Source: a virus (Duplodnaviria; Heunggongvirae; Uroviricota; Caudoviricetes). Taken from it: a DNA stretch of 64,000 nt. Numbering within the stretch: position 1 is the first letter of the stretch; each line of letters opens with the position of its first letter. The position numbers were made by a program, and so were the translations under genes. Where the stretch lies: the IMG/VR virus record IMGVR_UViG_3300029288_007068. One strand, 5' to 3'. Under the pieces are notes generated by a model. It worked only from the letters and a program-made list of their open reading frames with translations, was not told the DNA's origin and ran no database searches. Of this stretch, positions 4,851 through 44,094 are shown one piece after another.

Positions 4851-6380
4851 CTAAAGTATATCCTGAATTAGTTTTACATAAACAGTATTCCCAAACTTCT
4901 TCTTTAAGAACCACTTGTTTTTATTCGTATCATCTTCTTCTTCTGTTTCCAATTTCAGCGCCCGATTGTTTGCTGTAACTCTGGAACAATTATCCCAAGC
5001 AAACTGTAAATCCCTAATCCATTTTGACCTTCTAACCCAAACTTTATCTTTGACATTTCCTTTTGCGTTCTCTTTCAACAAACGCTTATAAGTATCTATC
5101 GACCTGTGAATCATATAAGTCATTTTTACTTTTTGTTCACTTGTTGGAATTAATAAATCTTCTATGTTATAAATTAGATTTCGCCACATTGGCTCAAAAA
5201 CTCTTTTAGCATAAAGAATATCTTCCGACTCAACGCTATTCCTCAAACATATAATGGCATGGTGAATCGCAAATCTAACCAATATCTCATAAATTCTATG
5301 GACAAATTCCGCCAACTTCTCTTGCGCAATTGAAGTAGTATCTTTAATCATCTCAACCAATTCATGGACAACATGCTTCAATTCTCCTTTTGATGTTTCG
5401 CTTATGTTAAAACAATATCCCTTCCAAATCGGCTTATCCAATCTATTGACTTCTGATTTAATCCAATTACAAAGCATATCTATCTGGGATTGATTGAACG
5501 TTGGCATAATCCTTTTTGCTATTCTCACAAGTTTCTCATCATCAATTCTAAACTTCTTTTCAGTTTCTATACCACCCAACTTTTGATACTTATCAATTAT
5601 AGTTTTAAGTCTATCTAATATCTCTTTATACTCTTTATCATAACTCTCTTCTGTCAGAGCATTCAACTTTTCAATAGCTTTATCTACCACTTTCATTCTT
5701 TCTTCGAGAGTTGGATTCTTCATGTTTGTAGTAAACCTTTGTATCACACCACGCTTCACCAGAGCCTCGATGAACTTGTCGGGAATATAAGTAGTAAAGA
5801 GGAATGAACAATGGGGCTTAAATCGAATTGCATCGGGTATAGAGCCAAGCTTCTTTGTTATCTCACAAGACGCATCATCCAAAGGATTCATGGCAACTTG
5901 AGCATAAGTTAAATTCTTTTTACTGAACTCAGTTTGATAATCAAACATTGGCGACGCCTCTTCCATTGATATCATATCTGCGTCTTCCATTAGTCCATGT
6001 ATAATTTCAAAACTCCCATCTGGCAACCGTTGTCCAGTCCCAACCAATCCCGCATCTGTTGCCTCTGTCAATTGCTCATCATGGAGTCCAACATCTTTTG
6101 CCAATCTCCGATAAAATCCATAACCGGAACCCTTACCTGTACCGGCGGGCATGATTAACAATAGGTGCATCCTAATATCTATCTTTCTTGCGCCGGCTCT
6201 GAAATAAATGTTTTTCAGGGCTTGTCCAAGAATAACATGGAGAATCATAACTCCATATTCTTTATTACTAATGGAGTATTCGTTAAAATGCTTTAAGAAG
6301 TCATGAATGAAATTATCGCCATATTTAGAGGAATCAAACTCTTCTTTAGTTGGTTTTTTAGTCATTTTAGTTCCACTCAT
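4851..6380 (-). CDS. Hypothetical 509-aa protein with glycine-rich loop (IMPAGTGKGSGYG); overlaps the start of the transglycosylase gene
   Basis: Long uninterrupted ORF whose start overlaps the downstream TGT-family gene by 14 nt. The glycine-rich motif resembles a nucleotide-binding loop but is not a canonical Walker A. Confidence 0.45.
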   Translation of the reverse strand: MSGTKMTKKPTKEEFDSSKYGDNFIHDFLKHFNEYSISNKEYGVMILHVILGQALKNIYFRAGARKIDIRMHLLLIMPAGTGKGSGYGFYRRLAKDVGLHDEQLTEATDAGLVGTGQRLPDGSFEIIHGLMEDADMISMEEASPMFDYQTEFSKKNLTYAQVAMNPLDDASCEITKKLGSIPDAIRFKPHCSFLFTTYIPDKFIEALVKRGVIQRFTTNMKNPTLEERMKVVDKAIEKLNALTEESYDKEYKEILDRLKTIIDKYQKLGGIETEKKFRIDDEKLVRIAKRIMPTFNQSQIDMLCNWIKSEVNRLDKPIWKGYCFNISETSKGELKHVVHELVEMIKDTTSIAQEKLAEFVHRIYEILVRFAIHHAIICLRNSVESEDILYAKRVFEPMWRNLIYNIEDLLIPTSEQKVKMTYMIHRSIDTYKRLLKENAKGNVKDKVWVRRSKWIRDLQFAWDNCSRVTANNRALKLETEEEDDTNKNKWFLKKKFGNTVYVKLIQDIL

Positions 6381-7497
6381 TATCTGTATCTATATCGCCG
6401 AGCCCATCTTGCCTCTTTGGCTCTCCATAGATAAGGTGATTGATTCCATCTTTGTATGTTTCTTTGTTCTTTCGATAAACCGGCTGTAATCTCAAAATCT
6501 TGTTAATGATGTCATCGAAACACTCATCATCTTGAACCATGACATTGACATAATCATTCCATCTCTTTCTGACATAGACGTTATGTAAAAGCATGGGATA
6601 ATAATTATTAATCATTTCATTAACTGTGTGCTTTGAACAAACCGGACAATCACATGGATTTGGACCATCCATATCAAACTTAACTTGTGCTTCTAAATTC
6701 TTTTTGGTATAAGAAAGCGAACTCAAGTAATATGGGTCGTGATACTTACCCATCATCAAACCCATGGCGGCACTTGATGTATCATATGTGTAAAATCTTT
6801 TAAACTTGTGAGCCATCTTTGCAAATATTACAACAAGCAATGGCTCACACTTACCAAGAAAATGGAAATTAGTCCCAATCTCTTTCGCAAATTGCAATTG
6901 AGAAAGCCAGTTTTGTTGATACGCGGGATTAAATGAAGACCACATTGGAAACGTATAACCGGGAAACTCACCATAAGTTTTCGTTAGGTGCTCGTGCCAC
7001 TTCATCATATCGTTATAATTTCCACCTTGAATGACCGCCCATATTTGAGTATCTTTATAACCTTCTGACTTATATTCTTCTAACTTAGATGCGGCAGTCC
7101 AAGCATTAGCATTTGATATCTCCATGTATTTTTTAAAGTCATCTTCTGGGTAATATTTTAAGTTATCTACTTCTGAACGATAAGCGTATGCTGGAACATC
7201 TACAGTAAAAGCAACGTTGGCTTTGATTTTCTTTACTTGCCATTCCAAGACATCTAAACAAGAAACCTTTTTACCCAACTTACTAATTTGAAACCCACCT
7301 GAATCAGCAACTATATAATCAGCTTCTGGGAAATCTGCGTCTCGAGTTTTATTCATTCCCGTAACGAAAGGTGACGCAAAGACATATGGATAATAAAAAT
7401 AGGGATTATCTTTATACCAATGCATTGCCCGCCGCCATTCTTCACGCTTGAATGTAATGCTGACAGGCATATAAATTGTGCCTTTTCTCTCTGCCAC
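6367..7497 (-). CDS. tRNA-guanine transglycosylase family protein (phage DpdA-like DNA 7-deazaguanine transglycosylase)
   Basis: Catalytic-aspartate motif ADSGGFQ and C-terminal zinc site CDCPVCSKH (CxCxxC...H), both typical of the TGT superfamily. Adjacent to folE and queE. Confidence 0.6.
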   Translation of the reverse strand: MAERKGTIYMPVSITFKREEWRRAMHWYKDNPYFYYPYVFASPFVTGMNKTRDADFPEADYIVADSGGFQISKLGKKVSCLDVLEWQVKKIKANVAFTVDVPAYAYRSEVDNLKYYPEDDFKKYMEISNANAWTAASKLEEYKSEGYKDTQIWAVIQGGNYNDMMKWHEHLTKTYGEFPGYTFPMWSSFNPAYQQNWLSQLQFAKEIGTNFHFLGKCEPLLVVIFAKMAHKFKRFYTYDTSSAAMGLMMGKYHDPYYLSSLSYTKKNLEAQVKFDMDGPNPCDCPVCSKHTVNEMINNYYPMLLHNVYVRKRWNDYVNVMVQDDECFDDIINKILRLQPVYRKNKETYKDGINHLIYGEPKRQDGLGDIDTDNEWN

Positions 7498-7883: not shown

Positions 7884-8495
7884 TCACTCACGCTCACATA
7901 TTGATATCAAGTTCAATACTTCTTGACGAGCACCATTGTTTGTTTTAAATGCACCCCGAACTTCTGATGTAATGGTTCTTGTTGTATCATTTTTGGTTTC
8001 CCTTGATGACACACAAAGATGTTTTGCATCCACCACAACCATAACTCCTCTACATTCTAATGTTTTATATAAGCCGTCGGCTATCTGTTGTGTCATGCGT
8101 TCTTGAATTTGGAGTCTTCTGGCATAAATCTCAACAAGCTTAACTAATTTATCAAGACCAGTTACATATTTTGATGGGATATAAGCAATATACGCTTTTC
8201 CAAAGAAAGGCGCCATATGATGTTCACAAAATGAATAAAAAGAAATTGGTCCTTCTACCACTATTCCACAAGTTTCAGTAAACTGACGATTTAAAACATC
8301 TGCTGGTTTAAAATCATATCCACCAAACCACTCTTCGTATGCTTTAGCGACACGATATGGAGTTGCTTTAAGTCCTTCCCTATCTGGGTTTTCTCCTATT
8401 TCTCTTAAAAGAGTTTTGACAGCAGAATGAATATATTTGTTATTACGTAAATTTTGACGACACTCTTTGATTTCCATTAAACAACCTCTCGCCAC
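7884..8495 (-). CDS. folE: GTP cyclohydrolase I
   Basis: FolE signatures CEHHMAPF and QERMTQQIA. Length 203 aa. Confidence 0.8.
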   Translation of the reverse strand: MARGCLMEIKECRQNLRNNKYIHSAVKTLLREIGENPDREGLKATPYRVAKAYEEWFGGYDFKPADVLNRQFTETCGIVVEGPISFYSFCEHHMAPFFGKAYIAYIPSKYVTGLDKLVKLVEIYARRLQIQERMTQQIADGLYKTLECRGVMVVVDAKHLCVSSRETKNDTTRTITSEVRGAFKTNNGARQEVLNLISICERE

Positions 8496-8923: not shown

Positions 8924-9189
8924 TTTTTCTCCTTCTTCCTTTTACGCCACCGGGTAACTCTCTCAACATTTTTCTTTCTATTCATCTCATTGGCGCATTC
9001 TTCCGAACAATACCTTGTAACTTTTGTTCCATAATAATAGAAATCACAATCGGGATTAAGACACTTTTTGAGTTTTACCCTCTTCATCCTTCCTACTCGA
9101 TACTTTTTCTTTTTTATACACTCAGAACATTGCTTGTTATGACATGACTTCCCACAAGTCAAACATCTAATTACTTTTTTATACACCAC
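8908..9189 (-). CDS. Cys-rich basic zinc-ribbon protein
   Basis: CLTCGKSCHNKQCSECIKKKK and CLNPDCDF...CSEECANE motifs. Confidence 0.4.
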   Translation of the reverse strand: MVYKKVIRCLTCGKSCHNKQCSECIKKKKYRVGRMKRVKLKKCLNPDCDFYYYGTKVTRYCSEECANEMNRKKNVERVTRWRKRKKEKNESQL

Positions 9190-9841
9190 GTTTATTCCCC
9201 CACAATGTAATTTGCAGGCGCGGCGTTATTCTTCCATATCCAATTTCTTTAACCCACTCGACAATTTGAAGCATCTTAGAATTGATATCTTGTTCGTTTG
9301 TTCCTTCCGGCATAAAGTAGATGTTATCTTTGACATTTATGAGTGCACATATTCGTAGCACTTCATCGAAATCCTTCCGGTCACGAATGACGAATTTAAA
9401 TGCGTCAGCTTGCAGTGACCATTTACGAAGGACATCCAAATAGCGAGGATTGAGAAAGTCCGGTTTTGGGCTGACGATAAAGGTACAAAAGCCTATGATG
9501 AGAGGGCGGTAGATAGTACCGTTAGTTTCAATGTAAATGGTTTTACCGGTCTTGAAGAGTTCTTTAACAAGGTCTTCAATTTGAGGTTGAAGGAGAGGCT
9601 CACCACCGGTGATAACTATGTTCTGACATCTATCATCGATAAGGTCTATGATTTCACTTATCTGGAGGTCTTGTCCATCTTTCGCATATTTGCTGTCACA
9701 GAAATCACAAGTAAGGTTACAACCAGACAAACGAATGAACCAAGCTGGCATTCCTATTTGTGAACCTTCGCCCTGGATAGAATAAAAAGTTTCTGAAATT
9801 TTCATATCAACCCTTCCTATCTGGTGCCCAACCCTCAACAA
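9179..9841 (-). CDS. queE: 7-carboxy-7-deazaguanine synthase (radical SAM)
   Basis: Radical-SAM cluster motif in FIRLSGCNLTCDFCDSKY (CxxxCxxC in a QueE-like context). Length 220 aa. Confidence 0.7.
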   Translation of the reverse strand: MLRVGHQIGRVDMKISETFYSIQGEGSQIGMPAWFIRLSGCNLTCDFCDSKYAKDGQDLQISEIIDLIDDRCQNIVITGGEPLLQPQIEDLVKELFKTGKTIYIETNGTIYRPLIIGFCTFIVSPKPDFLNPRYLDVLRKWSLQADAFKFVIRDRKDFDEVLRICALINVKDNIYFMPEGTNEQDINSKMLQIVEWVKEIGYGRITPRLQITLWGNKRGV

Positions 9842-22353: not shown

Positions 22354-22564
22354 ACTTCTTCCAATAATACTTCATTGTTGATTTTAAAAGGACTGGAGTT
22401 GCGTAGGCGGCAAACACTCCCCCCAAGAACATGCCACCAAGCAAACTCAGCAGTAATGCTTCTTTGTTTAGCGTAAACAAACCAACAATACATGGTGTTC
22501 CTAAAAGTATAGCTGTTGATATCAATATTATTAAGATAAGTTTCAATATTGTTACTATCCGCAT
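22316..22564 (-). CDS. Small two-helix membrane protein, first gene of the OST operon
   Basis: 82 aa, two hydrophobic helices. Its end overlaps the OST start. Promoter motif at 22598..22630. Confidence 0.4.
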   Translation of the reverse strand: MRIVTILKLILIILISTAILLGTPCIVGLFTLNKEALLLSLLGGMFLGGVFAAYATPVLLKSTMKYYWKKYAERQHAQKESW

Positions 22565-32924: not shown

Positions 32925-33147
32925 TCTTTTTCACCTTCCTAATCGCTTCTTTCATAGCTTTACTACAACAACCATCGCAACCATGAACATTGAATCCAAA
33001 TTTGTTATCTGGGTCGTTTCTGGCAAGCCACTCGGCGTTTGGATGACCGATGCCATGCTTACATATATCTTCTACTAAGCCAGTCTCGCGTATGAATTGC
33101 TGAACAGCCCATCGTGGTTTTTTGTATTCTACCATAAATTGTAACAC
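32905..33147 (-). CDS. Small Cys/His-rich protein
   Basis: CKHGIGHPN ... HGCDGCC motif. Confidence 0.3.
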   Translation of the reverse strand: MLQFMVEYKKPRWAVQQFIRETGLVEDICKHGIGHPNAEWLARNDPDNKFGFNVHGCDGCCSKAMKEAIRKVKKNGNKIN

Positions 33148-34133
33148 CTCAATACTCCTTCTGTTTCCTGTGTCCTTTTGATATCATATTCGCCATCTTT
33201 AAATCGCTTGACGTAGTTGGGAATCTCTTTCCATTCGCGCGGGTCGTTTTCAAACCAACCATAAGACACTATTCCACATGATTCCAAAGCAACCCATTTG
33301 CGGAAGCAAGCCGGACAATGACCACAACTTCCAAGAGTGTTTTCATCATAACAACTGACTGACGCTTCGAGAACTCTTAAAACATAATTCATAGGATAGT
33401 TATCAATAAACCACTGAATGATGTCTGTCTTCGTCATCTCCCAAAAAGGCGACTCTATTGATATCTTTGGTTCATCTTTCTTTTTTATGAAGTTCATGGC
33501 ATGTGACATAACATCAAAGGCTTCTGGAGTCTTGTCTTCTACGTGGTCGCCTTTGACGCCACACATATAAATCTTATTACCATAGTAAGATGCGAGCGTA
33601 GCCAAGAGCAAATTCCGGTTGGGTATATATGCTTTATCTCCAACTTCAAACTCATGTAGGCTTGGTCCTTCAATGAATTTGAGCTTCATGTTTGGGATTA
33701 CTCTACATAACTCGTAGAGGCAATGAATTTCTTTATAGGCATACTTATGACTCAAATCAATGTAAATCGCTTGTGGGAAGTTTAGGTAGTGAAGTCCTAT
33801 AATGCTATCAACCCCACCAGAAAGCAATAGGACTTCCCTATCTAATTGGTGACATGCTTTATCGTCTACGTACAATTCTGCTTGTGGTTTCCCAAGAATG
33901 AGTTCATCATAGGGAACATTGTTTTTCTTAAGCCATGCTTCGGTCACTTCTCTATCCTCTTCGTATCTGGCTGAATGGAGAACTATAGTATACCCGCGTT
34001 GTTTTAAGTCAAAGAGCGTATCTATATTATAGGAATTTGGCGTCCTACTTGAGTAATAGGAATCGCCAAAGCCCTGAGTCTCTTTCGTAATGATTCCATC
34101 TATGTCTACGACTTTTATCTTCATGCGTAACAC
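33129..34133 (-). CDS. queC: HAD-like phosphatase domain fused to 7-cyano-7-deazaguanine synthase
   Basis: N-terminal roughly 95 aa carry HAD motif I VVDIDGIIT and LGKPQAELYVDDKA. The remainder has the QueC PP-loop LLLSGGVDS, IPNRNLLLATLASYY, and the zinc site CGHCPAC. Confidence 0.7.
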   Translation of the reverse strand: MLRMKIKVVDIDGIITKETQGFGDSYYSSRTPNSYNIDTLFDLKQRGYTIVLHSARYEEDREVTEAWLKKNNVPYDELILGKPQAELYVDDKACHQLDREVLLLSGGVDSIIGLHYLNFPQAIYIDLSHKYAYKEIHCLYELCRVIPNMKLKFIEGPSLHEFEVGDKAYIPNRNLLLATLASYYGNKIYMCGVKGDHVEDKTPEAFDVMSHAMNFIKKKDEPKISIESPFWEMTKTDIIQWFIDNYPMNYVLRVLEASVSCYDENTLGSCGHCPACFRKWVALESCGIVSYGWFENDPREWKEIPNYVKRFKDGEYDIKRTQETEGVLRCYNLW

Positions 34134-34696
34134 ATTACTGTATACTCGTATTGCTCAAACGAGATATCACTACCATCCCACACTTCAACAAGCCAATACA
34201 TAGTTTTATGACCACTGTATTGAGAAACTGTATAATTCCCATCACCACCGTAGACTATGCTATGTTGAATCCAACTTCCATTGAAGAAAGCATAATAAAA
34301 AGTAATTTTTAAATCACTATCATCAACGTCTTCCACAAGGACACTCAAATTATGTTTGTAACCATAATATTTATGATATCCTGTCACGTTTATTAGAGTT
34401 ATCGTCGGTGGAACGTTTATCGGAGCATCTTGTCCATCTTCACCATCTACGCCAGCGGGTCCTTGTGGTCCGGTTTCTCCTTGTCTTCCTTTTGAGCCTG
34501 TTTCTCCTTTTATTCCTGGGTCACCCGGTCTTCCCTGTAGTCCTTGAATTCCCTGTTCGCCTTGAATTCCTCTCTGACCTTGAGGACCGACAAATGCGTC
34601 TGTTTGTTGCCAATAATATAGCACACCAGCATCAAGCAATAAGGCGGCGATTGCCACTACAATTATTGCTACAGCCCCTTTTCTACTTCCTACCAT
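34121..34696 (-). CDS. Collagen-like (Gly-X-Y repeat) protein with N-terminal membrane / signal segment; probable fibre component
   Basis: About 20 uninterrupted GXY triplets (GPQGQRGIQGEQGIQGLQGRPGDPGIKGETGSKGRQGETGPQGPAGVDGEDG). The C-terminal globular domain has NxS/T sequons. Confidence 0.65.
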   Translation of the reverse strand: MVGSRKGAVAIIVVAIAALLLDAGVLYYWQQTDAFVGPQGQRGIQGEQGIQGLQGRPGDPGIKGETGSKGRQGETGPQGPAGVDGEDGQDAPINVPPTITLINVTGYHKYYGYKHNLSVLVEDVDDSDLKITFYYAFFNGSWIQHSIVYGGDGNYTVSQYSGHKTMYWLVEVWDGSDISFEQYEYTVMCYA

Positions 34697-36754: not shown

Positions 36755-37159
36755 TCATTTCAACTTCTCCACTATAAAATCAAAAACATCTGAGTTATAA
36801 TAACGATAGTGATATGCGATATTAACATAACTATTATCTCCCAACATATAGGAAATCGCCATAGCAACTGCTGGTGAGCGTGATATCCCAGCATCACAAC
36901 CAACTATGACAAGACTGGCGTTTTGTACATCAAGAAGAATGGACTTAATTTTCTGAACGTCGGTTTCCTGTATGAACATAGGATGCTTTTTATCAACATC
37001 AAAAAATCGAAGTTGAAGTGTTGGTTTGAAAGGAAAATGATATTTCCTAAAACCATCGGTAATGATTACTGTAACAATTTTTGTGTGTATTTTAGAAAAC
37101 TCTTTATAAGAAGCTATGATGTCTTCTATGGGAAGAATCTTATACTTACCTAAATTCAT
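36755..37159 (-). CDS. Dual-specificity / protein-tyrosine phosphatase
   Basis: C(X)5R(S/T) active-site loop VIVGCDAGISRSPAVAMA. Confidence 0.6.
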   Translation of the reverse strand: MNLGKYKILPIEDIIASYKEFSKIHTKIVTVIITDGFRKYHFPFKPTLQLRFFDVDKKHPMFIQETDVQKIKSILLDVQNASLVIVGCDAGISRSPAVAMAISYMLGDNSYVNIAYHYRYYNSDVFDFIVEKLK

Positions 37160-37161
37160 GT

Positions 37162-37701
37162 CTACTTCTCCAGATATTGAGTTGATATGTCATCGGCAAA
37201 GTAAACTAACTTGCACTCGGGATAATATTTTATAATATATTTTTCACCACGATTATATGATTCATCATATGGACCCATGTGCCATCGAATCATTGCTATC
37301 TCTTGGTCAGTTAGGTTAATGAACTTTTGTATAACCATTACACTCTTGTCACCATGACCGATTGGGAATGAGTCTTCGTGAATATATTTTTGTTGTGATT
37401 CACTCCATATATAAATACCAACTTTACAAACGTCGTGAAGTAATCCAACTATAGCCTGCGTTTCATATGTTATTGGTTTTCCATTCCAAAAGTATGCAAC
37501 TAACTTTTGTAGTGTCTTAAAAACGCTAAGACTATGTTGTGCAAGACCGCCATGGCACGCTAAGTGAAATTTGGATGATGCTGGAGCGGTGAAGAAGTCA
37601 GTTAACTTTAACCATTCTATCAAAGCGCTCATTCCTTTTCGGTCGACACCTTCGAGGAGAGTGATTATCATTTCTTTATTTTTTTCAATATCTATATTCA
37701 T
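37162..37701 (-). CDS. HD-domain phosphohydrolase
   Basis: H...H in HLACHGGLAQH, HD in GLLHDVCK, and a downstream HGD motif. Confidence 0.5.
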   Translation of the reverse strand: MNIDIEKNKEMIITLLEGVDRKGMSALIEWLKLTDFFTAPASSKFHLACHGGLAQHSLSVFKTLQKLVAYFWNGKPITYETQAIVGLLHDVCKVGIYIWSESQQKYIHEDSFPIGHGDKSVMVIQKFINLTDQEIAMIRWHMGPYDESYNRGEKYIIKYYPECKLVYFADDISTQYLEK

Positions 37702-38616: not shown

Positions 38617-39393
38617 TCATAGTTCACCTGTCTTTGATATTCTTGTTTGTAATTTGCGTGTGACGTTATACCAGTCACGTGGTTGGGCAGTTGAAGGGAA
38701 GTGATAACATAAAGCATTTGTTAGAAGATGCCCTTTAAGGCGCGAATCTGTAAGCCAATATTCTAACATTATATCTTCACATGGCATGCCGTGGAGATGG
38801 CGCAGTTTGTATATAACCTTTGTAAACTTGTCGGGACTAATTCGATTCATAGCAATCATATAATGGAAGCCACCAGTGACACATTTGATTTCTTTATGCT
38901 TCTCCATATTATAGTAGTAGTGAGGGATGCCCCATTCAGACAACCCCGCGAAGGAGTTTTTTGTGTCGAGCGAATAATCGGAGTGAGCAAGAGCGTTATT
39001 GACATCAATGGCTACGCCGGCGACATAGATGACTTTAGAATGGGAACGAATGTGGTCGTAAAGAGTTTTGACGAATCCGGGCGTAAGCATTACGTCATCG
39101 TCTAACATAAGGAGATATCGGTAATGACGCTCACGGGCGTAGCGAAGGAGAAAGACGCGCGCGAGGGCAAGACTTCTATCTTTCATTGAGCGAATGTGTT
39201 TGACGTCGACGCCTTTGTGGAGTTGGAGCAAGTCTATCATTTGACGGACTATGTAGTTATCGGTGACTGGGGCGTCAGAGGAATCATATATAACTAAATC
39301 GAAGTGGATGGCTTGTTGCGACAAGGAGTAAAGAGGGAGAGGCAGAATATCGGAACGGTTTTTGGTGGGGATTGCTATAAGGATTTCATTCAT
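38617..39393 (-). CDS. Family-2 glycosyltransferase (GT-A fold)
   Basis: N-terminal IAIPTKNRSDIL and a DxD-containing LLMLDDDVMLTPGF motif. Confidence 0.55.
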   Translation of the reverse strand: MNEILIAIPTKNRSDILPLPLYSLSQQAIHFDLVIYDSSDAPVTDNYIVRQMIDLLQLHKGVDVKHIRSMKDRSLALARVFLLRYARERHYRYLLMLDDDVMLTPGFVKTLYDHIRSHSKVIYVAGVAIDVNNALAHSDYSLDTKNSFAGLSEWGIPHYYYNMEKHKEIKCVTGGFHYMIAMNRISPDKFTKVIYKLRHLHGMPCEDIMLEYWLTDSRLKGHLLTNALCYHFPSTAQPRDWYNVTRKLQTRISKTGEL

Positions 39394-39745
39394 TAGAACA
39401 ACTTTCCTTATGAACTAAAATCTTTTTAATTTTACAAAGACATAACGCTACTTCTTGGTATTGCTCGTCGGTTACACAATTATTAATTCTTTCTACTTCA
39501 GCAATTCTTCTTAACCATTCCAAAGGAGTTTCAGTTCGTACACAAACATCAATAGAAACCTTTTTACATAAATCTTCTTTTTCCTGTTGTGTATATAGTT
39601 GTTTCTTTTGGAGTTTCGTAAGAGAAACGTTTGATGCTTTGGGATTTAAAACAACAATGAATTTCACTTTACCATTTTTGAATCTACCGGATGTATCGCA
39701 GTAAAAGTCAGCCTCACTTATTTTGTTAAGTGTTTGTTCGTTCAT
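39386..39745 (-). CDS. Hypothetical protein
   Basis: ORF. Promoter motif variant at 39781..39812. Confidence 0.35.
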   Translation of the reverse strand: MNEQTLNKISEADFYCDTSGRFKNGKVKFIVVLNPKASNVSLTKLQKKQLYTQQEKEDLCKKVSIDVCVRTETPLEWLRRIAEVERINNCVTDEQYQEVALCLCKIKKILVHKESCSNE

Positions 39746-39780
39746 CTCATTCTCTCCTTTAATGACTTTATATGTTCTAC

Positions 39781-39812
39781 CTTTATAAGGGTTTAGGAAG
39801 GGTTAATAGTTT
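39781..39812 (-). promoter_or_regulatory. Class-1 bipartite promoter motif (variant TTATAAAGG)
   Basis: Minus strand AACTATTAAC, 14 nt, CCTTATAAAGG. Confidence 0.4.
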
Positions 39813-40561
39813 TAAAGAAAAGAATCGAGTTTTTGTATTCCGTTATCAACTTCTTTTTTTATGCCAAAAGTTATCCCTGTAGCATAAGCCTTTTTAATTG
39901 CCGTCTTTACCAAATACCACTCTAAATTATACTTCTTAACGAACTCGAACCACGCATTGCTGGAACCAACATCGTGGCTTATAATAAGACCGCCTTGTTT
40001 AACTCTTCCAATAGCCCATCTATATTCATCCCACATATTCTTATAAGTATGTGCAGAATCGTGACAAAAGAAATCAATTAACTCCCAATTTAAGTTTGGC
40101 AAAATATCCATTGATTTTCCTATTTTCAATTCCCATCTGGTTGATATATCTTTTGTAACGTAACAACCACATTCTTCACTATCCCAATTGTCTATACTAA
40201 TAAGTTTTCCCTGTTGATTCAATTTCATAGCATATAAAAATACAGCTGTTGACAAACCGAAATGAACTCCTGTCTCAACTAAAAGTTTTGGTTTATACTT
40301 TCGAATAAGACTAAAGAGAATCTGTAAAGTAGCAGAATACATCCCAAGGTCTCTTCCATACTTTTTATATTTTTCCTTTCTCATCTCTTGAAGATTCTGC
40401 CAAAACTTTGAGTTAAAAAGTTCGTTAGTATAATCTATCAACTCAGCTGTAGTTAGATATTTATCCAAAAAAGAAATATAAAGATTCTTTCTTTCTTCTT
40501 CAGTCATTTGATAAAGAATACGGTCTTTTTTCCAGGATTGCATTACTTCCACCAATACCAT
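39812..40561 (-). CDS. SAM-dependent O-methyltransferase of the TylF / CmcI (macrocin-O-MT) type
   Basis: LVETGVHFGLSTAVF (glycine-rich SAM loop as in TylF) and the DFFCHDSAHTY motif. Confidence 0.45.
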   Translation of the reverse strand: MVLVEVMQSWKKDRILYQMTEEERKNLYISFLDKYLTTAELIDYTNELFNSKFWQNLQEMRKEKYKKYGRDLGMYSATLQILFSLIRKYKPKLLVETGVHFGLSTAVFLYAMKLNQQGKLISIDNWDSEECGCYVTKDISTRWELKIGKSMDILPNLNWELIDFFCHDSAHTYKNMWDEYRWAIGRVKQGGLIISHDVGSSNAWFEFVKKYNLEWYLVKTAIKKAYATGITFGIKKEVDNGIQKLDSFL

Positions 40562-41220
40562 TTCCCTTTTATCATTGCATTAATAACTTTTTGTCTATCA
40601 TCAATATTAAACATTGGCTTGTTAACGGCTCCTGGTGTTCCATATCTTCCAAATGTTGCAGTCAATATTCCTTTCGCTCCACTCCTTGTTGATATTCTGT
40701 AGATTTCACCATTTAACAACTGAACTCCCAACTTATCTTTACCAGGATGTTTTGGACAATCCTCCCATTTAACATAATCCTTAGTTCCTTCTATAATCTT
40801 CTTTGCATATTCAATTGAGGCTTTAGTTACACTATATGTTTTATTTCCTTCTGGGTTATCTCGCTTTGTAATCGTCTCTTCAATAGCTAATCTATCTATT
40901 GTTCTATTATTTGGAAGAAAAGAAATATATTTAAATTTTCCCAACTTAAATGTATCTTTTAAATGACCTTTATCTCTTTTGTATGCTGAAGCTCCACTTA
41001 TACCATCGTAAAAATACATTTCCGAATCTATTTCCGGCCATAAAAAATAATTACCTTGTGAAATAGGTTTAGTTAAAAAATTTTCAAGTTTAACTCCATC
41101 GGTAACTTTCCTCTTTGGTAGTTCTCTTATTTCATCTAATGTTGGTGGAGTAACTGTTATATACTTCGAAAGTTTTACAGCTTTTCTATCTCTATCCATT
41201 TTTTCCATATCTATCACCAA
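40543..41220 (-). CDS. Hypothetical protein (glycan cluster)
   Basis: ORF overlapping its neighbours. No motif. Confidence 0.4.
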   Translation of the reverse strand: MVIDMEKMDRDRKAVKLSKYITVTPPTLDEIRELPKRKVTDGVKLENFLTKPISQGNYFLWPEIDSEMYFYDGISGASAYKRDKGHLKDTFKLGKFKYISFLPNNRTIDRLAIEETITKRDNPEGNKTYSVTKASIEYAKKIIEGTKDYVKWEDCPKHPGKDKLGVQLLNGEIYRISTRSGAKGILTATFGRYGTPGAVNKPMFNIDDRQKVINAMIKGKWYWWK

Positions 41221-41371
41221 ATATACCTATAAAGTCAACAATTTATATACCTTTTGGTTATGGGTCCTCAATCTACTTCCAACCTTCACCGAATACTTCA
41301 CAACCTCCGGTAGGTTGAAGAATGTGACATACAATCCAATCCAAAGGATGACGTCTAACATGTTTTCACTT

Positions 41372-41638
41372 TTATCTATAACAATGATACGGTTCTCTCA
41401 TCTCTCTAATAAAATAATCCACTGCTTCTAAAGCAGTTTCAAAATACAAAGGTTCACATTTTTCAAAAGGATATTTTCTAACGTTTCCAAATCCCTTTGT
41501 TGGTGTATACCTAAATAAATATAAGTCTTTTATACCTTCAAGTTTTACACTAACTTTGTTCTGACCTTTGTATGAAGTTACTCTTTCCATTCCTAACAAA
41601 TTTTTAAGAATCTCTTTAAACAAATCAAATTCTTTCAT
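41372..41638 (-). CDS. Small hypothetical protein
   Basis: ORF. Confidence 0.35.
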   Translation of the reverse strand: MKEFDLFKEILKNLLGMERVTSYKGQNKVSVKLEGIKDLYLFRYTPTKGFGNVRKYPFEKCEPLYFETALEAVDYFIREMREPYHCYR

Positions 41639-41649
41639 GCTCTTCCTCC

Positions 41650-42567
41650 TTAATGAACTAACTTCTTATCTTCTCGCTTGGAATTCGCCAATTGCAACAT
41701 ATGGTTGTACGCGCAACCTGGGTTACATCCTTTGATATCCATCTCCCAGTCTTTCTGTAGCCGCTCCAAATTGATATCAAATATCCTATGCTCTTGGCAT
41801 TTTAAACCCCTTACATCTGGGCACGTCATTATGCTACCATCTTCGTCTATTGTCAAATACTCTATCGAGCCACCACAATGCCAATCCAAATTCAAACCAT
41901 ACTTCGGAAGCAGTTCGAAGTATTCGCGAACGTTATGAAGCATAATACTTGGGTCATCTTTCAACGCAAGAAGCTCCTGTGATATCCATTCCAACTCTTT
42001 TTGGTTGAGCAACATCTCAGGGCAATTCTCCCTGAAGCGCCATATCTGACTCTTTCCAGAGTGGACATATCCAACAATCGACCAAATCCCAAGAGATGAC
42101 AAATGCCTAATCAACTCGGGAATGTATTTGTAACTCTTTTTATGAATAATCATATTTCCGCACACATCGGGAACTCCCTGTTGCTTTGCCCTAAGAAGAG
42201 ATTCATACCCTTTGTGGGATTTAAGGTCTATACTCTTGAGTGACGTAAAGTGGTTGTTAGGCAAAATATCTATGCTACAAGTTACATTCTTAAACTCGGA
42301 GTAACCATAGTCGATTGTTCCATTAGTTATGACAGCGTATGGGATGTCGAGCTCATTGGCGCGACGAAGGAGAACCATGAAATCTTGGCGGACAAGTGGC
42401 TCACCGCCAAAGAAGATTAAGATTTCCGGGTTGATTTCTTTGACCTTATCAAGGACTTTCAGCGCCCATTCAGTATTCAGAGTAGGACGACGCTCTTTGT
42501 AAACACGGCAGTAACTGCAAGACAAATTACATTGTCGTGTCGTAAACCAACAGACTTGTCTAATCAT
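41650..42567 (-). CDS. Radical SAM enzyme with C-terminal SPASM-like cysteine cluster
   Basis: N-terminal TRQCNLSCSYCRV (CxxxCxxC). C-terminal cysteine clusters (CGGSIEY...CPD, CNPGCAYNH). Confidence 0.6.
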   Translation of the reverse strand: MIRQVCWFTTRQCNLSCSYCRVYKERRPTLNTEWALKVLDKVKEINPEILIFFGGEPLVRQDFMVLLRRANELDIPYAVITNGTIDYGYSEFKNVTCSIDILPNNHFTSLKSIDLKSHKGYESLLRAKQQGVPDVCGNMIIHKKSYKYIPELIRHLSSLGIWSIVGYVHSGKSQIWRFRENCPEMLLNQKELEWISQELLALKDDPSIMLHNVREYFELLPKYGLNLDWHCGGSIEYLTIDEDGSIMTCPDVRGLKCQEHRIFDINLERLQKDWEMDIKGCNPGCAYNHMLQLANSKREDKKLVH

Positions 42568-42815
42568 TTGGCGCTCTCGTTATAAGCATTTACATTTTCA
42601 GTTTTTTCTTCTTTCTTCGGCTTTAAGTAATACCCACCACGCTTTTTAAGCATAGCCACAAAGCGCTCATACTTACTCATTCGAGCCCGACGCTTTTTCT
42701 CATACCTGGATATTCGGTCAACCGGGATGCCCGCCTTGTTGAGTTCTTGGCAATGCTGTTCCCAAGATAGTTTTTCTTTAGCGTCCTGTATTGATATCCT
42801 ATGCGACATAATCAT
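42564..42815 (-). CDS. Small basic protein, first gene after the structured leader
   Basis: ORF with SD AAGGAGAGA. Confidence 0.35.
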   Translation of the reverse strand: MIMSHRISIQDAKEKLSWEQHCQELNKAGIPVDRISRYEKKRRARMSKYERFVAMLKKRGGYYLKPKKEEKTENVNAYNESAK

Positions 42816-42933
42816 TCTCTCCTTATTCGAGGTGAGTGGACAGGCGGAACTCTATGAGAGACTTTCTTTTAAGGGAGGGGAGGAAAGGATTTCATTCGCC
42901 ACCTGTCCACAATTTTACAATATAGTCAGTCTA
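42816..42933 (-). ncRNA. Structured 5' leader: 11-bp stem (GTGGACAGGTG / CGCCTGTCCAC) enclosing a pyrimidine-rich CCUCCCCUCCC loop, between promoter and SD
   Basis: Inverted repeat at about 42833..42844 and 42896..42909. The loop sequence is complementary to the nearby SD. Confidence 0.35.
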
Positions 42934-42966
42934 TTATATAAATTTTATTGTTGTCTTAATAGTTGT
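42934..42966 (-). promoter_or_regulatory. Class-1 bipartite promoter motif
   Basis: Minus strand AACTATTAAG, 14 nt, TTATATAAT. Confidence 0.5.
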
Positions 42967-43079: not shown

Positions 43080-43415
43080 TTATCCATATCCAAACATCCT
43101 ATCATATCTATGATGGTTCAAAACGTCTAAAATAGCTGTTAATATTTTTACTCTTCCTTGTGGCATAATAGTATAAATTAATCTCCAACCAGGACGTCTA
43201 TTTGAAAGTTCATATCTCCATAAGTTACTTATACCATAATGTTTATACTTGCTGGGCCACCGCGCTGGTGGAATTTTATTACCACACTGTGGATTTCTTT
43301 TTAAGTTATCGGTAGCAATATCAAATTCTCTTCCCAAGTTAAATTGCCTAACAATGTTCTTAACATCTCTTTTTACAGTATCACTATAAAAACCTATATA
43401 GTATTCCTTATTCAT
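43080..43415 (-). CDS. RelE/ParE-family type II toxin
   Basis: C-terminal NLWRYELSNRRPGWRLIYTIMPQGRVKILTAILDVLNHHRYDRMF matches the RelE/ParE core pattern (R-x-G-x-YR-x-I-Y ... HR-x-D). Confidence 0.5.
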   Translation of the reverse strand: MNKEYYIGFYSDTVKRDVKNIVRQFNLGREFDIATDNLKRNPQCGNKIPPARWPSKYKHYGISNLWRYELSNRRPGWRLIYTIMPQGRVKILTAILDVLNHHRYDRMFGYG

Positions 43416-43666
43416 AAAATCAAAAGACTCCTGTTAAACCATATTCTATTTGATGCTCTGGGATTTGAAATCCAAACAATTTGACCTTCATCAAACACAA
43501 TCATATTCTCATTTCTGAGATATTCTAAAATCGTTCCTAATTCAGCTTTTGTTTTAAACCTACCTTTCAATGTTTTCCACAGTTCATTTGGAGTAAGATA
43601 GTTCTTGGCTGATTTAATTTTATCTTTAACAACCAAAACATCCTTTGCCGTTACATACTGAGTCAA
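43412..43666 (-). CDS. Putative cognate antitoxin (overlaps toxin start by 4 nt; TTG start)
   Basis: 84-aa ORF immediately 5' of the toxin, overlapping it. Promoter motif variant at 43704..43738. Confidence 0.35.
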   Translation of the reverse strand: MTQYVTAKDVLVVKDKIKSAKNYLTPNELWKTLKGRFKTKAELGTILEYLRNENMIVFDEGQIVWISNPRASNRIWFNRSLLIL

Positions 43667-43703: not shown

Positions 43704-43738
43704 ATATTTAAATATTTTATGGTAAAGTTTAATAGTTT
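43704..43738 (-). promoter_or_regulatory. Class-1 bipartite promoter motif (variant ATTTAAATA)
   Basis: Minus strand AACTATTAAA, 14 nt, ATTTAAATATC. Confidence 0.4.
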
Positions 43739-44094
43739 AACTTACTCTGAGAAACAGATTCACTTGCCCAACTTGTAGCGCTTTCCCACACCTTTACCGA
43801 CACTGTTGTCTCCGGGTATCTCAACGAAATGGCATTCGCCAGATGATGTGCGATATTCTCAGCTGTTGGATTCTCAAAGTAATCATTGAGGTCGGTGTGG
43901 TCAAACTTATTTATGATATCTTTGACTTCTTTAAAATCAACCAGCATTCCTATCTCTTTATTTATGAGACCTATGATTTCCACTTCTATTTTAAAAGAAT
44001 GTCCATGAACATTTTTACAGAGACCATTGTAGCCAGGAAGGTGGTGTGCGGCTGATATTGTTGTTTCAGTATGAATCTTCATAACAACCACCAA
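43729..44094 (-). CDS. queD: 6-carboxy-5,6,7,8-tetrahydropterin synthase
   Basis: 121 aa. Zinc-binding CKNVHGHSF (Cx3HGH) and the HTETTIS N-terminal His typical of QueD/PTPS. Confidence 0.7.
   Translation of the reverse strand: MVVVMKIHTETTISAAHHLPGYNGLCKNVHGHSFKIEVEIIGLINKEIGMLVDFKEVKDIINKFDHTDLNDYFENPTAENIAHHLANAISLRYPETTVSVKVWESATSWASESVSQSKLNY

What the first reader, a model, noticed from the sequence alone, without database searches (positions are those of the whole stretch)
38617..42966. Glycan-tailoring gene cluster (GT2, TylF-like O-methyltransferase, radical SAM/SPASM, three unknowns) under one promoter with a structured leader
Downstream of the promoter at 42934..42966 lies a run of overlapping genes: a small basic protein, a radical SAM enzyme with a SPASM-like cysteine cluster, two unknowns, a TylF/CmcI-type sugar O-methyltransferase, another unknown, and a family-2 glycosyltransferase. 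Taken with the OST operon, this looks like a virus-borne pathway to build or decorate the lipid-linked glycan that the OST transfers. In archaea, N-glycan biosynthesis uses exactly this enzyme mix (Agl glycosyltransferases, AglP-like methyltransferases). A radical SAM enzyme in the pathway suggests an unusual sugar modification such as epimerisation, C-methylation or deoxygenation.
Basis: partly seen in the sequence, partly recalled or inferred. Interest (0 to 1): 0.75.

Follow-up and report, generated by a model that had tools for sequence, protein, structure and literature searches.

The report
Sugar-adding branch of deazaguanine pathway
The gene cluster is real, but its radical SAM enzyme, methyltransferase and glycosyltransferase travel with the genes that make 7-deazaguanine (a guanine substitute some viruses put in their DNA), not with the protein-glycosylation enzyme, so it probably builds a new sugar-decorated DNA base.

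Summary
A conserved TATA-like element and a leader hairpin lie upstream.

The link to the OST is not supported. Relatives of the radical SAM enzyme were recovered in 10 or more independent lineages of archaeal-virus-like, phage-like and cellular contigs. Wherever a few kb of flank are present, they lie beside or within a few kb of 7-deazaguanine genes (FolE, QueD, QueE, a divergent QueC, a DpdA-like transglycosylase).

- The radical SAM enzyme repeatedly abuts QueC.
- A HAD phosphatase is fused to QueC at either end, or to a second radical SAM enzyme.
- A glycosyltransferase (GT2 or GT4) is operon-linked in four distant loci, and a methyltransferase (two different families) in several.
- A collinear relative keeps the radical SAM enzyme, GT2 and HAD::QueC but lacks the STT3 cassette.
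- All cluster proteins are predicted soluble.

The "unknowns" are lineage-specific ORFans. None of the core enzymes has a match in 50,697 deposited phage genomes, and I found no paper describing them.

Best reading: an undescribed tailoring branch that makes a glycosylated, methylated 7-deazaguanine, probably placed in viral DNA. The chemistry is inferred, not shown.

The parts
42933..42946 (-). TATA-box-like promoter element AAAATTTATATAAT, about 25 nt upstream of the leader hairpin
   Evidence: Read directly from the sequence. It is the only exact match to the pattern in the window. The core TTTATATAATA and its flanks are conserved in relative L024 even though the coding sequence has diverged. 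The sigma-70 scan does not call it.
42836..42910 (-). Leader hairpin: a 12-bp stem (GUGGACAGGUGG / CCGCCUGUCCAC) closing a C/U-rich loop (CCUCCCCUCCC) that could pair with the GGAGAG ribosome-binding site of g1
   Evidence: MFE -28.5 kcal/mol, z -2.43. Both arms were found by the pattern search. L024 forms the same stem with four base pairs changed on both sides, GUGGGUGAG/CUCACCCAC. No Rfam family matches.
42564..42815 (-). g1: small basic protein (83 aa, pI 9.9), function unknown
   Evidence: ORF. No family match. Homologues at 64-74% identity occur only in close relatives L009, L018 and L024. It is absent from more distant radical SAM loci, so it is not part of the conserved core.
41650..42567 (-). 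g2: twitch-type radical SAM enzyme, the anchor of the conserved module
41372..41638 (-). g3: 88-aa ORFan
   Evidence: No family match. No homologue in any fetched locus.
41227..41361 (-). 44-aa ORF, doubtful as a gene
   Evidence: ORF only. No family and no homologue.
40543..41220 (-). g4: 225-aa (or 221-aa) ORFan
   Evidence: An exhaustive HMMER search of 1.84 billion representative proteins finds only itself. No family match.
39812..40561 (-). g5: class-I SAM-dependent methyltransferase of the Methyltransf_24 family
   Evidence: PF13578 at 2e-18. Only weak COMT/OMT-3 matches in the PDB. Homologues at 40-43% identity lie directly after the radical SAM gene in L014 and L015 and 3.4 kb after it in L008. 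A Methyltransf_24 gene follows radical SAM and GT2 in L006.
39386..39745 (-). g6: 119-aa ORFan with 7 Cys
   Evidence: No family match. No homologue in the loci.
38617..39393 (-). g7: soluble GT-A (family 2) glycosyltransferase
43729..44094 (-). QueD (6-carboxytetrahydropterin synthase), 1.2 kb upstream of the radical SAM gene
   Evidence: TIGR03367 at 1e-24. A QueD homologue is the conserved upstream neighbour of the radical SAM gene in L001, L005, L008, L012, L015 and L024.
33129..34133 (-). HAD phosphatase fused to a divergent QueC-like PP-loop ATPase
   Evidence: QueC PF06508 at 1e-14, and the HAD domain matches TIGR01689 at 9e-10. SGGVDS motif and C-terminal Cys cluster are visible in the sequence. 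PDB matches 1xpj and 2pg3. It abuts radical SAM homologues in L016, L017, L022, L003, L027-29, L031 and L032.
9179..9841 (-). QueE (7-carboxy-7-deazaguanine synthase)
   Evidence: QueE NCBIfam models at 1e-30, covering the full length. PF04055.
7884..8495 (-). FolE (GTP cyclohydrolase I)
   Evidence: PF01227 at 8e-67.
6367..7497 (-). DpdA-like guanine transglycosylase: catalytic domain only, no PUA domain
   Evidence: Weak TGT hits. A three-sequence profile hits ArcTGT 1iq8 at 1.4e-9. Invariant DSGGxQ and CxCxxC...H motifs. Homologues next to the radical SAM gene in L016 and near it in L006.

Best explanation
The conserved core of this cluster is the twitch-type radical SAM enzyme g2, the Methyltransf_24 methyltransferase g5 and the soluble GT2 glycosyltransferase g7. 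It is a tailoring branch of the virus's own 7-deazaguanine pathway, not an N-glycan pathway.

**Proposed route**
1. FolE, QueD and QueE turn GTP into 7-carboxy-7-deazaguanine.
2. A divergent QueC fused to a HAD phosphatase, working with the radical SAM enzyme, converts this into a derivative other than plain preQ0.
3. The glycosyltransferase adds a sugar from a nucleotide sugar, and the methyltransferase methylates the sugar or the base.
4. The DpdA-like transglycosylase exchanges guanine in viral DNA for the modified base. Alternatively, the decoration happens after insertion.
5. The result is bulky, sugar-bearing guanine analogues that block host nucleases.

The four small or unknown ORFs (g1, g3, g4, g6) are lineage-specific passengers.

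**Shown here:** the enzyme families, and their repeated operon-level linkage and domain fusions across distant lineages.

**Inferred:** the order of steps, the radical SAM enzyme's reaction, the attachment point and identity of the sugar, and DNA as the final destination. By fold analogy with BlsE, the radical SAM enzyme may edit the sugar of a base-sugar conjugate.
For: **1. Linkage of the radical SAM enzyme to deazaguanine genes.** The family is small and known only from metagenomes. In every locus with usable flank it lies beside deazaguanine genes:
- L006: FolE, radical SAM, GT2 and Methyltransf_24 with overlapping genes. QueD and QueE lie upstream; HAD, QueC and TGT lie downstream.
- L016: PRTase, GT4, TGT/DpdA, radical SAM and HAD::QueC, all overlapping.
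- L003: QueE, FolE2, radical SAM::HAD, QueC, radical SAM, GT4, PHP.
- L031 (contig of a Lokiarchaeota MAG): radical SAM::HAD, QueC, radical SAM, methyltransferase, GT4.
- L017 and L022: the radical SAM gene is adjacent to QueC.
- L001, L005, L008, L012, L015, L024: QueD lies just upstream of the radical SAM gene.
- L027, L028, L029, L032: a full-length distant radical SAM homologue (23-26% identity, E 1e-15 to 1e-27). In L027, L029 and L032 it lies directly upstream of the QueC-HAD fusion; in L028 it lies about 1.5 kb upstream.

**2. Domain fusions.** The HAD domain is fused to the N-terminus of QueC (window, L016, L032), to its C-terminus (L027, L028), or to a second radical SAM enzyme (L003, L031). 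The top BFVD fold match for the radical SAM model is a 571-aa viral protein named 7-cyano-7-deazaguanine synthase.

**3. Non-orthologous replacement.** The glycosyltransferase is GT2 or GT4. The methyltransferase is Methyltransf_24 or Methyltransf_11. The same enzyme roles recur with different folds.

**4. Pathway completeness.** The window itself encodes FolE, QueE, QueD, HAD::QueC and a DpdA-like TGT.

**5. Independence from the OST.** Collinear relative L030 lacks the STT3 cassette but keeps radical SAM, GT2 and QueC.

**6. Precedent.** The huimycin cluster combines the preQ0 genes with one methyltransferase and one glycosyltransferase. It yields a methylated, glycosylated preQ0 (PMC7439116).

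**7. Fold and solubility.** The radical SAM enzyme has no RRE domain. Its best structural match is BlsE, which edits the sugar of a base-hexose conjugate. All cluster proteins are predicted soluble.
Against: - No chemistry was tested, and none of the eight known DNA 7-deazaguanine derivatives needs these enzymes (PMC10516641).
- In the window's own clade, GT2 and the methyltransferase are separated from the radical SAM gene by ORFans or by several kb. The methyltransferase is absent from L001/L030 and was not found in L005.
- The phage-like loci L027-L029 show no recognisable glycosyltransferase within 10 kb. So the glycosyltransferase is not obligatory for the radical SAM-QueC-HAD triad.
- Cellular cassettes L003 and L031 show no DpdA in view. 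The product may therefore be a free base or nucleoside rather than a DNA base.
- The window and L006 methyltransferases share only a Pfam family, not significant sequence similarity (E 0.017).
- The GT2 fold gives no clue to its acceptor.
- The loci found through QueC (L027-L032) are biased towards showing QueC.
Confidence: 0.55

Rival explanations
1. The same enzymes make a free 7-deazapurine glycoside, a huimycin- or dapiramicin-like small molecule or nucleoside. It is not incorporated into DNA. It would act as a metabolite, for example an inhibitor or a tRNA-modification precursor.
For: - Cellular cassettes L003 and L031 carry QueC, radical SAM, (methyltransferase) and GT4 without a visible DpdA. 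In L003 they sit near B12-radical SAM, GT4 and APH genes typical of natural-product clusters.
- HAD/QueC/radical SAM fusions suggest small-molecule channelling.
- PRTase plus phosphatase recur (L006, L016, L029, L030), as in nucleoside antibiotic pathways.
- Huimycin is a precedent.
- The closest fold, BlsE, acts on a free nucleoside.
Against: - The viral loci encode a DpdA-like transglycosylase, which is adjacent to the radical SAM gene in L016.
- All viruses known to carry these pathways use them for DNA (PMC10516641).
- It is hard to see what a lytic virus gains from a free toxic nucleoside.
Confidence: 0.2
2. Only the radical SAM enzyme belongs to the deazaguanine pathway. GT2 and the methyltransferase are unrelated neighbours that glycosylate and methylate something else, such as virion proteins, host envelope polymers or another DNA base.
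For: - In the window's clade, GT2 lies 2-6 kb from the radical SAM gene with unrelated genes in between (Band_7, ORFans).
- The methyltransferase is missing in L001/L030.
- L027-L029 have the radical SAM-QueC-HAD triad without a detectable glycosyltransferase.
Against: Four distant loci place a glycosyltransferase in the same overlapping-gene operon as the radical SAM and deazaguanine genes, using two different GT folds (L006, L016, L003, L031). Chance juxtaposition repeated four times is unlikely.
Confidence: 0.13
3. One reading: the cluster builds or decorates the lipid-linked glycan that the virus-encoded STT3/AglB-like OST transfers to proteins.
For: - The same genome encodes an STT3-like protein of 1038 aa (PF02516 at 8e-14), with a Methyltransf_11 gene beside it.
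- GT2 and SAM methyltransferases are typical Agl-pathway enzyme classes.
- A PKD-domain protein, a possible glycoprotein, precedes the radical SAM gene in relatives.
Against: - STT3 is 16 kb away.
- The syntenic relative L030 lacks STT3 and Methyltransf_11 but keeps radical SAM, GT2 and QueC.
- No STT3 lies within 10 kb in any of about 30 loci.
- There is no membrane-bound GT, flippase or polyprenol enzyme in the run, and all its proteins are soluble.
- Distant homologues are operon-linked to deazaguanine genes instead.
Confidence: 0.08
4. The radical SAM enzyme is a RiPP maturase acting on an adjacent small peptide (g1 or g3).
For: - Sequence and fold similarity to SkfB, SuiB, PqqE and CteB.
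- Small ORFs flank the gene.
Against: - There is no N-terminal RRE domain. The Fe-S motif starts at residue 13.
- g1 has a single Cys and is conserved only in close relatives. g3 has no homologue.
- In other lineages the neighbours are FolE, QueC, DpdA or a PKD protein.
- Only four auxiliary Cys are present, and the SPASM HMM is not hit.
Confidence: 0.02

Closest known systems
Viral 7-deazaguanine DNA modification systems (FolE-QueD-QueE-QueC plus DpdA; Hutinet 2019 PMC6884629, Cui 2023 PMC10516641)
   Same: The window and its relatives carry the same base pathway and a TGT-superfamily transglycosylase. The presumed purpose, protection of viral DNA from host nucleases, is the same.
   Different: The known systems yield eight derivatives (preQ0, ADG, G+, preQ1, mdPreQ1, fdPreQ1, DG, CDG), using QueF, Gat-QueC, DpdL, DpdM and DpdN. 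None uses a twitch radical SAM enzyme, a HAD-fused QueC, a glycosyltransferase or a Methyltransf_24 enzyme. The g2, radical SAM 330 and GT2 proteins have no match in 50,697 deposited phage genomes.
Huimycin (and dapiramicin) biosynthesis in actinomycetes (PMC7439116)
   Same: preQ0 genes are clustered with one SAM methyltransferase and one glycosyltransferase. The product is a methylated, glycosylated 7-deazaguanine.
   Different: The hui cluster has no radical SAM enzyme beyond QueE and no HAD. Its product is a free small molecule. Sequence relatedness to HuiC and HuiG could not be tested here. The viral loci add a DpdA.
BlsE, cytosylglucuronate decarboxylase of blasticidin S biosynthesis (PDB 7vob)
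ArcS-RaSEA archaeosine synthesis (PMC11298593)
   Same: A radical SAM enzyme completes a modification of a 7-deazaguanine (preQ0-Lys to G+).
   Different: No ArcS-like partner was seen. Homology between g2 and RaSEA could not be tested because no sequence was available. The RaSEA substrate is tRNA.
Archaeal Agl N-glycosylation pathway with AglB
   Same: The enzyme classes match (GT2, SAM methyltransferase), and an STT3/AglB-like gene lies in the same genome.
   Different: There is no synteny or co-conservation with STT3, no membrane components, and a different conserved neighbourhood.
DNA base glycosylation in phages (T4 glucosyl-hmC)
   Same: The concept is the same: a soluble glycosyltransferase puts a sugar on a modified base to evade restriction.
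   Different: Those systems act on pyrimidines (5-hmC). PHROG and TAGT matches for g7 are insignificant (E 0.03-0.05). No sugar-bearing 7-deazaguanine in DNA turned up in the paper searches made here.

Membership tests
Radical SAM superfamily (PF04055) | CX3CX2C cluster motif, GGE SAM-binding motif, and an HMM score above the gathering threshold | tested here: met
SPASM subfamily of radical SAM enzymes | A C-terminal seven-Cys motif binding two auxiliary clusters, and a SPASM HMM (PF13186) hit | tested here: not met
   Only four invariant C-terminal Cys are present: C231, C249, C281, C285. No SPASM Pfam hit at E up to 0.1. This fits a single-cluster twitch-type domain. Cluster binding itself was not tested.
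RiPP radical SAM maturases | An RRE or leader-binding domain and a conserved adjacent precursor peptide | tested here: not met
   The protein starts 12 residues before the Fe-S motif. The neighbouring small ORFs are not conserved across lineages.
Glycosyltransferase family 2 (GT-A) | PF00535 above threshold, a DXD motif, and a GT-A Rossmann-like fold | tested here: met
TylF / CmcI sugar O-methyltransferases | Full-length match to PF05711 (TylF) or PF04989 (CmcI) | tested here: inconclusive
   TylF is not hit. CmcI scores 23.4 bits against 23.2 over residues 75-129 only. The real match is the generic Methyltransf_24 family at 67.6 bits. The PDB gives only weak COMT-like hits. The substrate class is not determined.
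Archaeal Agl N-glycosylation gene set | Co-occurrence and co-conservation with AglB/STT3, plus membrane-associated lipid-carrier steps | tested here: not met
   The STT3 cassette is absent from syntenic relative L030. No STT3 lies within 10 kb of any homologue. No TM segments occur in the cluster proteins. Co-occurrence beyond 10 kb in other contigs was not tested.
Viral 7-deazaguanine DNA modification system | FolE, QueD, QueE, a QueC-type enzyme and a DpdA/TGT-family transglycosylase in one genome | tested here: met
   FolE at 8e-67, QueE at 1e-30, QueD at 1e-24, and QueC domain at 1e-14 with a PP-loop. The TGT-like protein matches ArcTGT at 1.4e-9 by profile and has DSGGxQ and Zn motifs.
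Viral 7-deazaguanine DNA modification system | A modified 7-deazaguanine actually present in the virion DNA | not testable with these tools
   This needs LC-MS/MS of nucleosides, or raw-signal sequencing data.
Canonical QueC (preQ0 synthase) | Score above the equivalog cut-off | tested here: not met
   TIGR00364 scores 40.8 bits against a cut-off of 150.3, and only the C-terminal half aligns. This is a divergent QueC-like enzyme, so preQ0 may not be its product.
Huimycin-type 7-deazapurine glycoside cluster | preQ0 genes plus a dedicated methyltransferase and glycosyltransferase homologous to HuiC and HuiG | not tested
   The enzyme classes match.

The most novel reading that the evidence does not exclude
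Viruses of sediment archaea (possibly Asgard archaea), and some phages, make a previously unknown sugar-bearing, methylated 7-deazaguanine. They install it in their DNA through DpdA. As far as I know this would be the first glycosylated purine analogue in any genome. It would be built by an undescribed enzyme set: a twitch radical SAM enzyme, a HAD-fused QueC-like ligase, and an interchangeable GT2 or GT4 with a methyltransferase. The same cassette also circulates in cellular genomes.
Probability: 0.35. Interest if true: 0.85.

Novelty: new variant of a known kind. Interest (0 to 1): 0.7.

Why it matters
7-Deazaguanine replacement of guanine is a major viral strategy against restriction and CRISPR nucleases. 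Only eight derivatives are known, all with small substituents.

A conserved radical SAM, HAD::QueC and glycosyltransferase (plus or minus methyltransferase) module would add a new chemical class, glycosylated 7-deazaguanines, and new enzymology:
- a radical SAM reaction on a deazapurine or on its attached sugar;
- a QueC variant that may make something other than preQ0.

It would also supply new tools for DNA labelling and a marker for finding hypermodified viral genomes in metagenomes.

The result corrects a tempting mis-annotation. GT2, a methyltransferase and a radical SAM enzyme near an OST look like a glycan pathway, but here they are better explained as part of a DNA-base pathway. It also shows that the viral OST cassette is an independent, lineage-specific acquisition.

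Tried and rejected
- **DNA similarity.** The cluster has no match in deposited phages.
- **IMG/VR scans.** Scans for the radical SAM enzyme and for STT3 found no relatives. IMG/VR therefore could not test co-occurrence.
- **GTDB scan.** A species-genome scan with the radical SAM profile found nothing.
- **RNA families.** Rfam and tRNA scans of the window found nothing.
- **Promoters and terminators.** Counts from the sigma-70 and terminator scans are no better than shuffles.
- **PADLOC.** Only generic N-terminal viperin-like hits for the radical SAM enzyme, so it is not a known defence system.
- **RiPP reading.** Rejected: no RRE domain and no conserved peptide.
- **GT2 acceptor.** Structure comparison did not reveal an acceptor. 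Only generic GT-A matches appeared. The hints of TAGT or a T4 glucosyltransferase (E 0.03-0.05) are not significant.
- **g4.** An exhaustive search found only itself.
- **Methyltransferase orthology.** The window and L006 enzymes are not significantly similar (E 0.017). Only the Pfam family is shared.
- **L033.** A distant radical SAM hit in a human-gut phage fragment has no QueC nearby and is uninformative.
- **Conserved unknown in L027-29.** The 290-347 aa protein after QueC::HAD gave no Pfam or PDB hit.
- **Unavailable resources.** The AFDB fold library was not available. RaSEA homology could not be tested for lack of a sequence.

Full report
**1. Observation**

The window is AT-rich (33-42% GC) and almost every gene is on the minus strand.
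- g1, 42564-42815: 83 aa, pI 9.9.
- g2, 41650-42567: 305 aa.
- g3, 41372-41638: 88 aa.
- A further 44-aa ORF at 41227-41361.
- g4, 40543-41220: 225 aa.
- g5, 39812-40561: 249 aa.
- g6, 39386-39745: 119 aa.
- g7, 38617-39393: 258 aa.

Three domain calls pass Pfam's curated thresholds: Radical_SAM for g2 (E 3e-13), Methyltransf_24 for g5 (E 2e-18) and Glycos_transf_2 for g7 (E 9e-11).

Two labels were too specific.
- The CmcI match of g5 is marginal (23.4 bits against 23.2, over 55 residues) and TylF is not hit.
- g2 has four invariant C-terminal cysteines rather than a full SPASM motif.

g1, g3, g4 and g6 match no family in Pfam, PHROGs, NCBIfam or PADLOC.

**2. Transcription unit and leader**

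Within the cluster, gaps range from -19 to +66 nt. The same tight packing continues past the GT2 gene to about 35986. From 43415 down to 34758 the only large gap is the 140-nt region upstream of g1.

That region holds AAAATTTATATAAT at 42933-42946(-). It reads like an archaeal TATA box and is not a sigma-70-type site. It also holds a 12-bp hairpin at 42836-42910(-), with MFE -28.5 kcal/mol and z -2.4.

Relative L024 keeps the TATA-like core and an equivalent stem. Four of its base pairs are changed on both sides: GUGGACAGG/CCUGUCCAC becomes GUGGGUGAG/CUCACCCAC. The loop is again C/U-rich. So the 'structured leader' is real, on the evidence of two sequences. No Rfam family matches. One promoter serving the whole run is plausible but not shown, and the unit does not end at 38617.

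**3. Genomic setting**

The window comes from a contig of at least 141 kb (P0020) that looks like an archaeal virus.
- It has a weak match to an AEP-type primase domain, a 5'-3' (FEN-type) exonuclease and a TATA-like promoter.
- Its relatives encode Hjc and RFC-like proteins.

It encodes a complete 7-deazaguanine pathway, scattered along the window:
- FolE, 7884-8495.
- QueE, 9179-9841.
- QueD, 43729-44094.
- A HAD phosphatase fused to a divergent QueC, 33129-34133.
- A catalytic-domain-only TGT/DpdA-like protein, 6367-7497. It has the DSGGxQ and zinc motifs, and a small profile matches ArcTGT at 1.4e-9.

The STT3/AglB-like gene (19237-22353) lies 16 kb from the GT2 gene.

**4. Comparative evidence**

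This evidence decides the interpretation. The g2 family is small and known only from metagenomes: 14 close relatives. More turned up in the JGI metagenome scan. I fetched about 30 loci and mapped homologues by tblastn and by precomputed or fresh Pfam hits. The loci fall into five groups.

(a) *The window's own clade (60-88% identity to g2).* QueD lies just upstream of the radical SAM gene in L001, L005, L008, L012, L015 and L024. The Methyltransf_24 gene follows the radical SAM gene directly in L014 and L015. GT2 and HAD::QueC lie a few kb downstream in L001 and L008, and GT2 in L005.

(b) *L006 (46% identity).* The order is QueD ... QueE, PRTase ... FolE, radical SAM, GT2, Methyltransf_24 ... 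HAD ... QueC ... TGT. FolE, radical SAM, GT2 and the methyltransferase abut or overlap one another.

(c) *L016 (41% identity).* PRTase, GT4, TGT, radical SAM and HAD::QueC; the last four genes overlap.

(d) *L003 and L031.* L003 is a bacterial-looking contig (GC 51%) and L031 is a contig of a Lokiarchaeota MAG (GC 34%). They share an orthologous cassette (55-66% amino-acid identity): a second radical SAM enzyme fused to the HAD domain, then QueC, a g2-like radical SAM enzyme (35-36% identity), a Methyltransf_11-type methyltransferase (L031 only) and GT4.

(e) *Other QueC-adjacent loci.* L017 and L022 show the radical SAM gene next to QueC. Starting instead from the QueC domain recovered L027, L028 and L029 (phage-like, with PolA and a DnaB-like helicase) and L032. 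In L027, L029 and L032 a full-length distant g2 homologue (23-26% identity, E 1e-15 to 1e-27) lies directly upstream of QueC. In L028 it lies about 1.5 kb upstream. In L027 and L028 QueC carries the HAD domain at its C-terminus. In L029 the HAD domain follows QueC as a separate gene. In L032 it is at the N-terminus, as in the window.

Three kinds of independent evidence therefore converge:
- Conserved adjacency across very different genomes.
- Domain fusions that shuffle HAD among QueC and radical SAM partners.
- Non-orthologous replacement of the glycosyltransferase (GT2 or GT4) and the methyltransferase (family 24 or 11) in the same operon position.

The top BFVD structural match of the g2 model is a 571-aa viral protein named 7-cyano-7-deazaguanine synthase. 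It is probably a radical SAM::QueC fusion, though I could not verify this.

**5. The OST link**

Window and L001/L030 are collinear over about 45 kb. The shared order is QueD, radical SAM, GT2, HAD::QueC, the FEN-type exonuclease, the homologue of window 17752-18465, QueE and FolE.

In L030 the homologue of window 17752-18465 follows the exonuclease gene after about 285 nt. In the window the same interval holds the 82-aa membrane protein, STT3 and the Methyltransf_11 gene (18549-22564). The OST cassette is therefore a lineage-specific insertion or loss. The radical SAM, GT2 and QueC genes are retained without it.

No STT3 lies within 10 kb of any radical SAM homologue. None of the cluster proteins has a hydrophobic segment, whereas STT3 has 93 qualifying windows. 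I could not test co-occurrence over whole genomes for the other contigs.

**6. The proteins themselves**

*Glycosyltransferase g7.* The model (pLDDT 83.7) is a generic soluble GT-A with an invariant DDD motif. It gives no clue to the acceptor.

*QueC domain.* It keeps the PP-loop (SGGVDS) and the C-terminal Cys cluster, but it scores far below the QueC equivalog cut-off. Its product may not be preQ0.

*HAD domain.* It resembles capsule-biosynthesis phosphatases (TIGR01689) and phage polynucleotide kinase-phosphatase domains.

*PRTase.* A PRTase recurs near the pathway in L006, L016 and L030, and in L029 it is fused to FolE. This hints at a phosphoribosylated intermediate. No PRTase homologue was found in the window by tblastn with the L006 and L016 sequences.

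*Unknowns.* g4 has no homologue among 1.84 billion representative proteins. g3 and g6 have none in any locus. g1 is found only in close relatives. These look like passengers.

**7. Mechanism, marked by status**

*Shown:* the enzyme families, their conserved linkage and fusions with 7-deazaguanine genes, and their independence from STT3.

*Inferred:*
1. CDG is made by FolE, QueD and QueE.
2. CDG is processed by the QueC-like/HAD enzyme and the radical SAM enzyme into a new derivative.
3. The derivative is glycosylated by GT2 (GT4 elsewhere) and methylated by g5.
4. The base is placed in DNA by the DpdA-like enzyme, before or after decoration.

The huimycin cluster (preQ0 genes, one methyltransferase, one glycosyltransferase) shows that direct methylation and glycosylation of a 7-deazaguanine is biochemically real (PMC7439116).

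My probabilities for the separate claims are:
- About 0.85 that g2 belongs to 7-deazaguanine metabolism.
- About 0.65 that GT2 and the methyltransferase act in the same pathway.
- About 0.5 that the end product sits in DNA rather than being a free metabolite.

**8. Novelty**

The eight known DNA 7-deazaguanines and their enzymes (DpdA1-4, DpdL, DpdM, DpdN, QueF, Gat-QueC) include none of these proteins (PMC10516641). Full-text searches found no paper that links a second radical SAM enzyme, a HAD-QueC fusion or a glycosyltransferase to 7-deazaguanine DNA modification.

Neither g2, its phage-like relative from L029, nor the GT2 matches any of 50,697 deposited phage genomes. The nearest deposited QueC genes are 25-30% identical and lack the HAD fusion.

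I therefore rate this a new variant of a known kind of system, one that can be tested directly by heterologous expression and nucleoside mass spectrometry.

Noticed in passing
window 18549-22564 (-): An STT3/AglB-like oligosaccharyltransferase (1038 aa) sits with an upstream 82-aa membrane protein and a downstream Methyltransf_11 gene. The cassette is absent at the syntenic site of relative L030. A full-text search turned up no report of a virus-encoded AglB.
   Followed up: partly
L003 6634-13027 and L031 1-3805: An orthologous cassette (radical SAM::HAD, QueC, g2-like radical SAM, methyltransferase in L031 only, GT4, and PHP in L003) occurs in a 51% GC bacterial-looking contig and in a 34% GC Lokiarchaeota MAG contig. 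Amino-acid identity is 55-66%, which suggests horizontal transfer. L003 continues with B12-radical SAM, GT4 and APH genes, like a natural-product cluster.
   Followed up: partly
L027 10977-11849, L028 10984-11967, L029 11101-12144: A conserved 290-347 aa protein with no Pfam or PDB match follows the QueC and HAD genes. It carries invariant FLDSGA.S and HGFG motifs reminiscent of TGT/DpdA. It may be an unrecognised DpdA subfamily.
   Followed up: partly
L029 8062-9027; L027 7380-8939: In L029 FolE is fused to a PRTase-like N-terminal domain. In L027 FolE is interrupted by a LAGLIDADG element.
   Followed up: no
window 43080-43666 (-): Two small overlapping genes (84 and 111 aa) lie between QueD and the cluster promoter. 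By eye the second resembles a RelE/ParE-type toxin. Relative L005 has a HicA toxin gene just after its radical SAM gene. These could be toxin-antitoxin pairs inserted around the module. Not tested.
   Followed up: no
window 15998-16423 (-): A pyrimidine-dimer DNA glycosylase (T4 endonuclease V family). In relatives L001, L008 and L015 its homologue sits between QueD and the PKD protein that precedes the radical SAM gene. In the window it has moved 26 kb away, and no PKD protein was seen upstream of the radical SAM gene.
   Followed up: partly
window 34121-34696, 31433-32551, 62008-63930 (-): A collagen-repeat protein, an SPFH/Band-7 protein (Band_7 genes also occur in L001 and L008) and a 640-aa beta-helix protein (a possible fibre or depolymerase).
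   Followed up: no
window 36755-37701 (-): An HD-domain phosphohydrolase and a small protein with a weak match to dual-specificity phosphatases lie in the same tightly packed run downstream of GT2. Neither has a homologue in the related loci.
   Followed up: partly
BFVD hits: Campylobacter phages (CP21, CP220, CPt10, CP20, F379, IBB35) appear among the structural neighbours, several with more than one radical SAM protein. As I recall it, phages of this group replace guanine with dADG. Whether any of these proteins is a functional counterpart of g2 is unknown.
   Followed up: no
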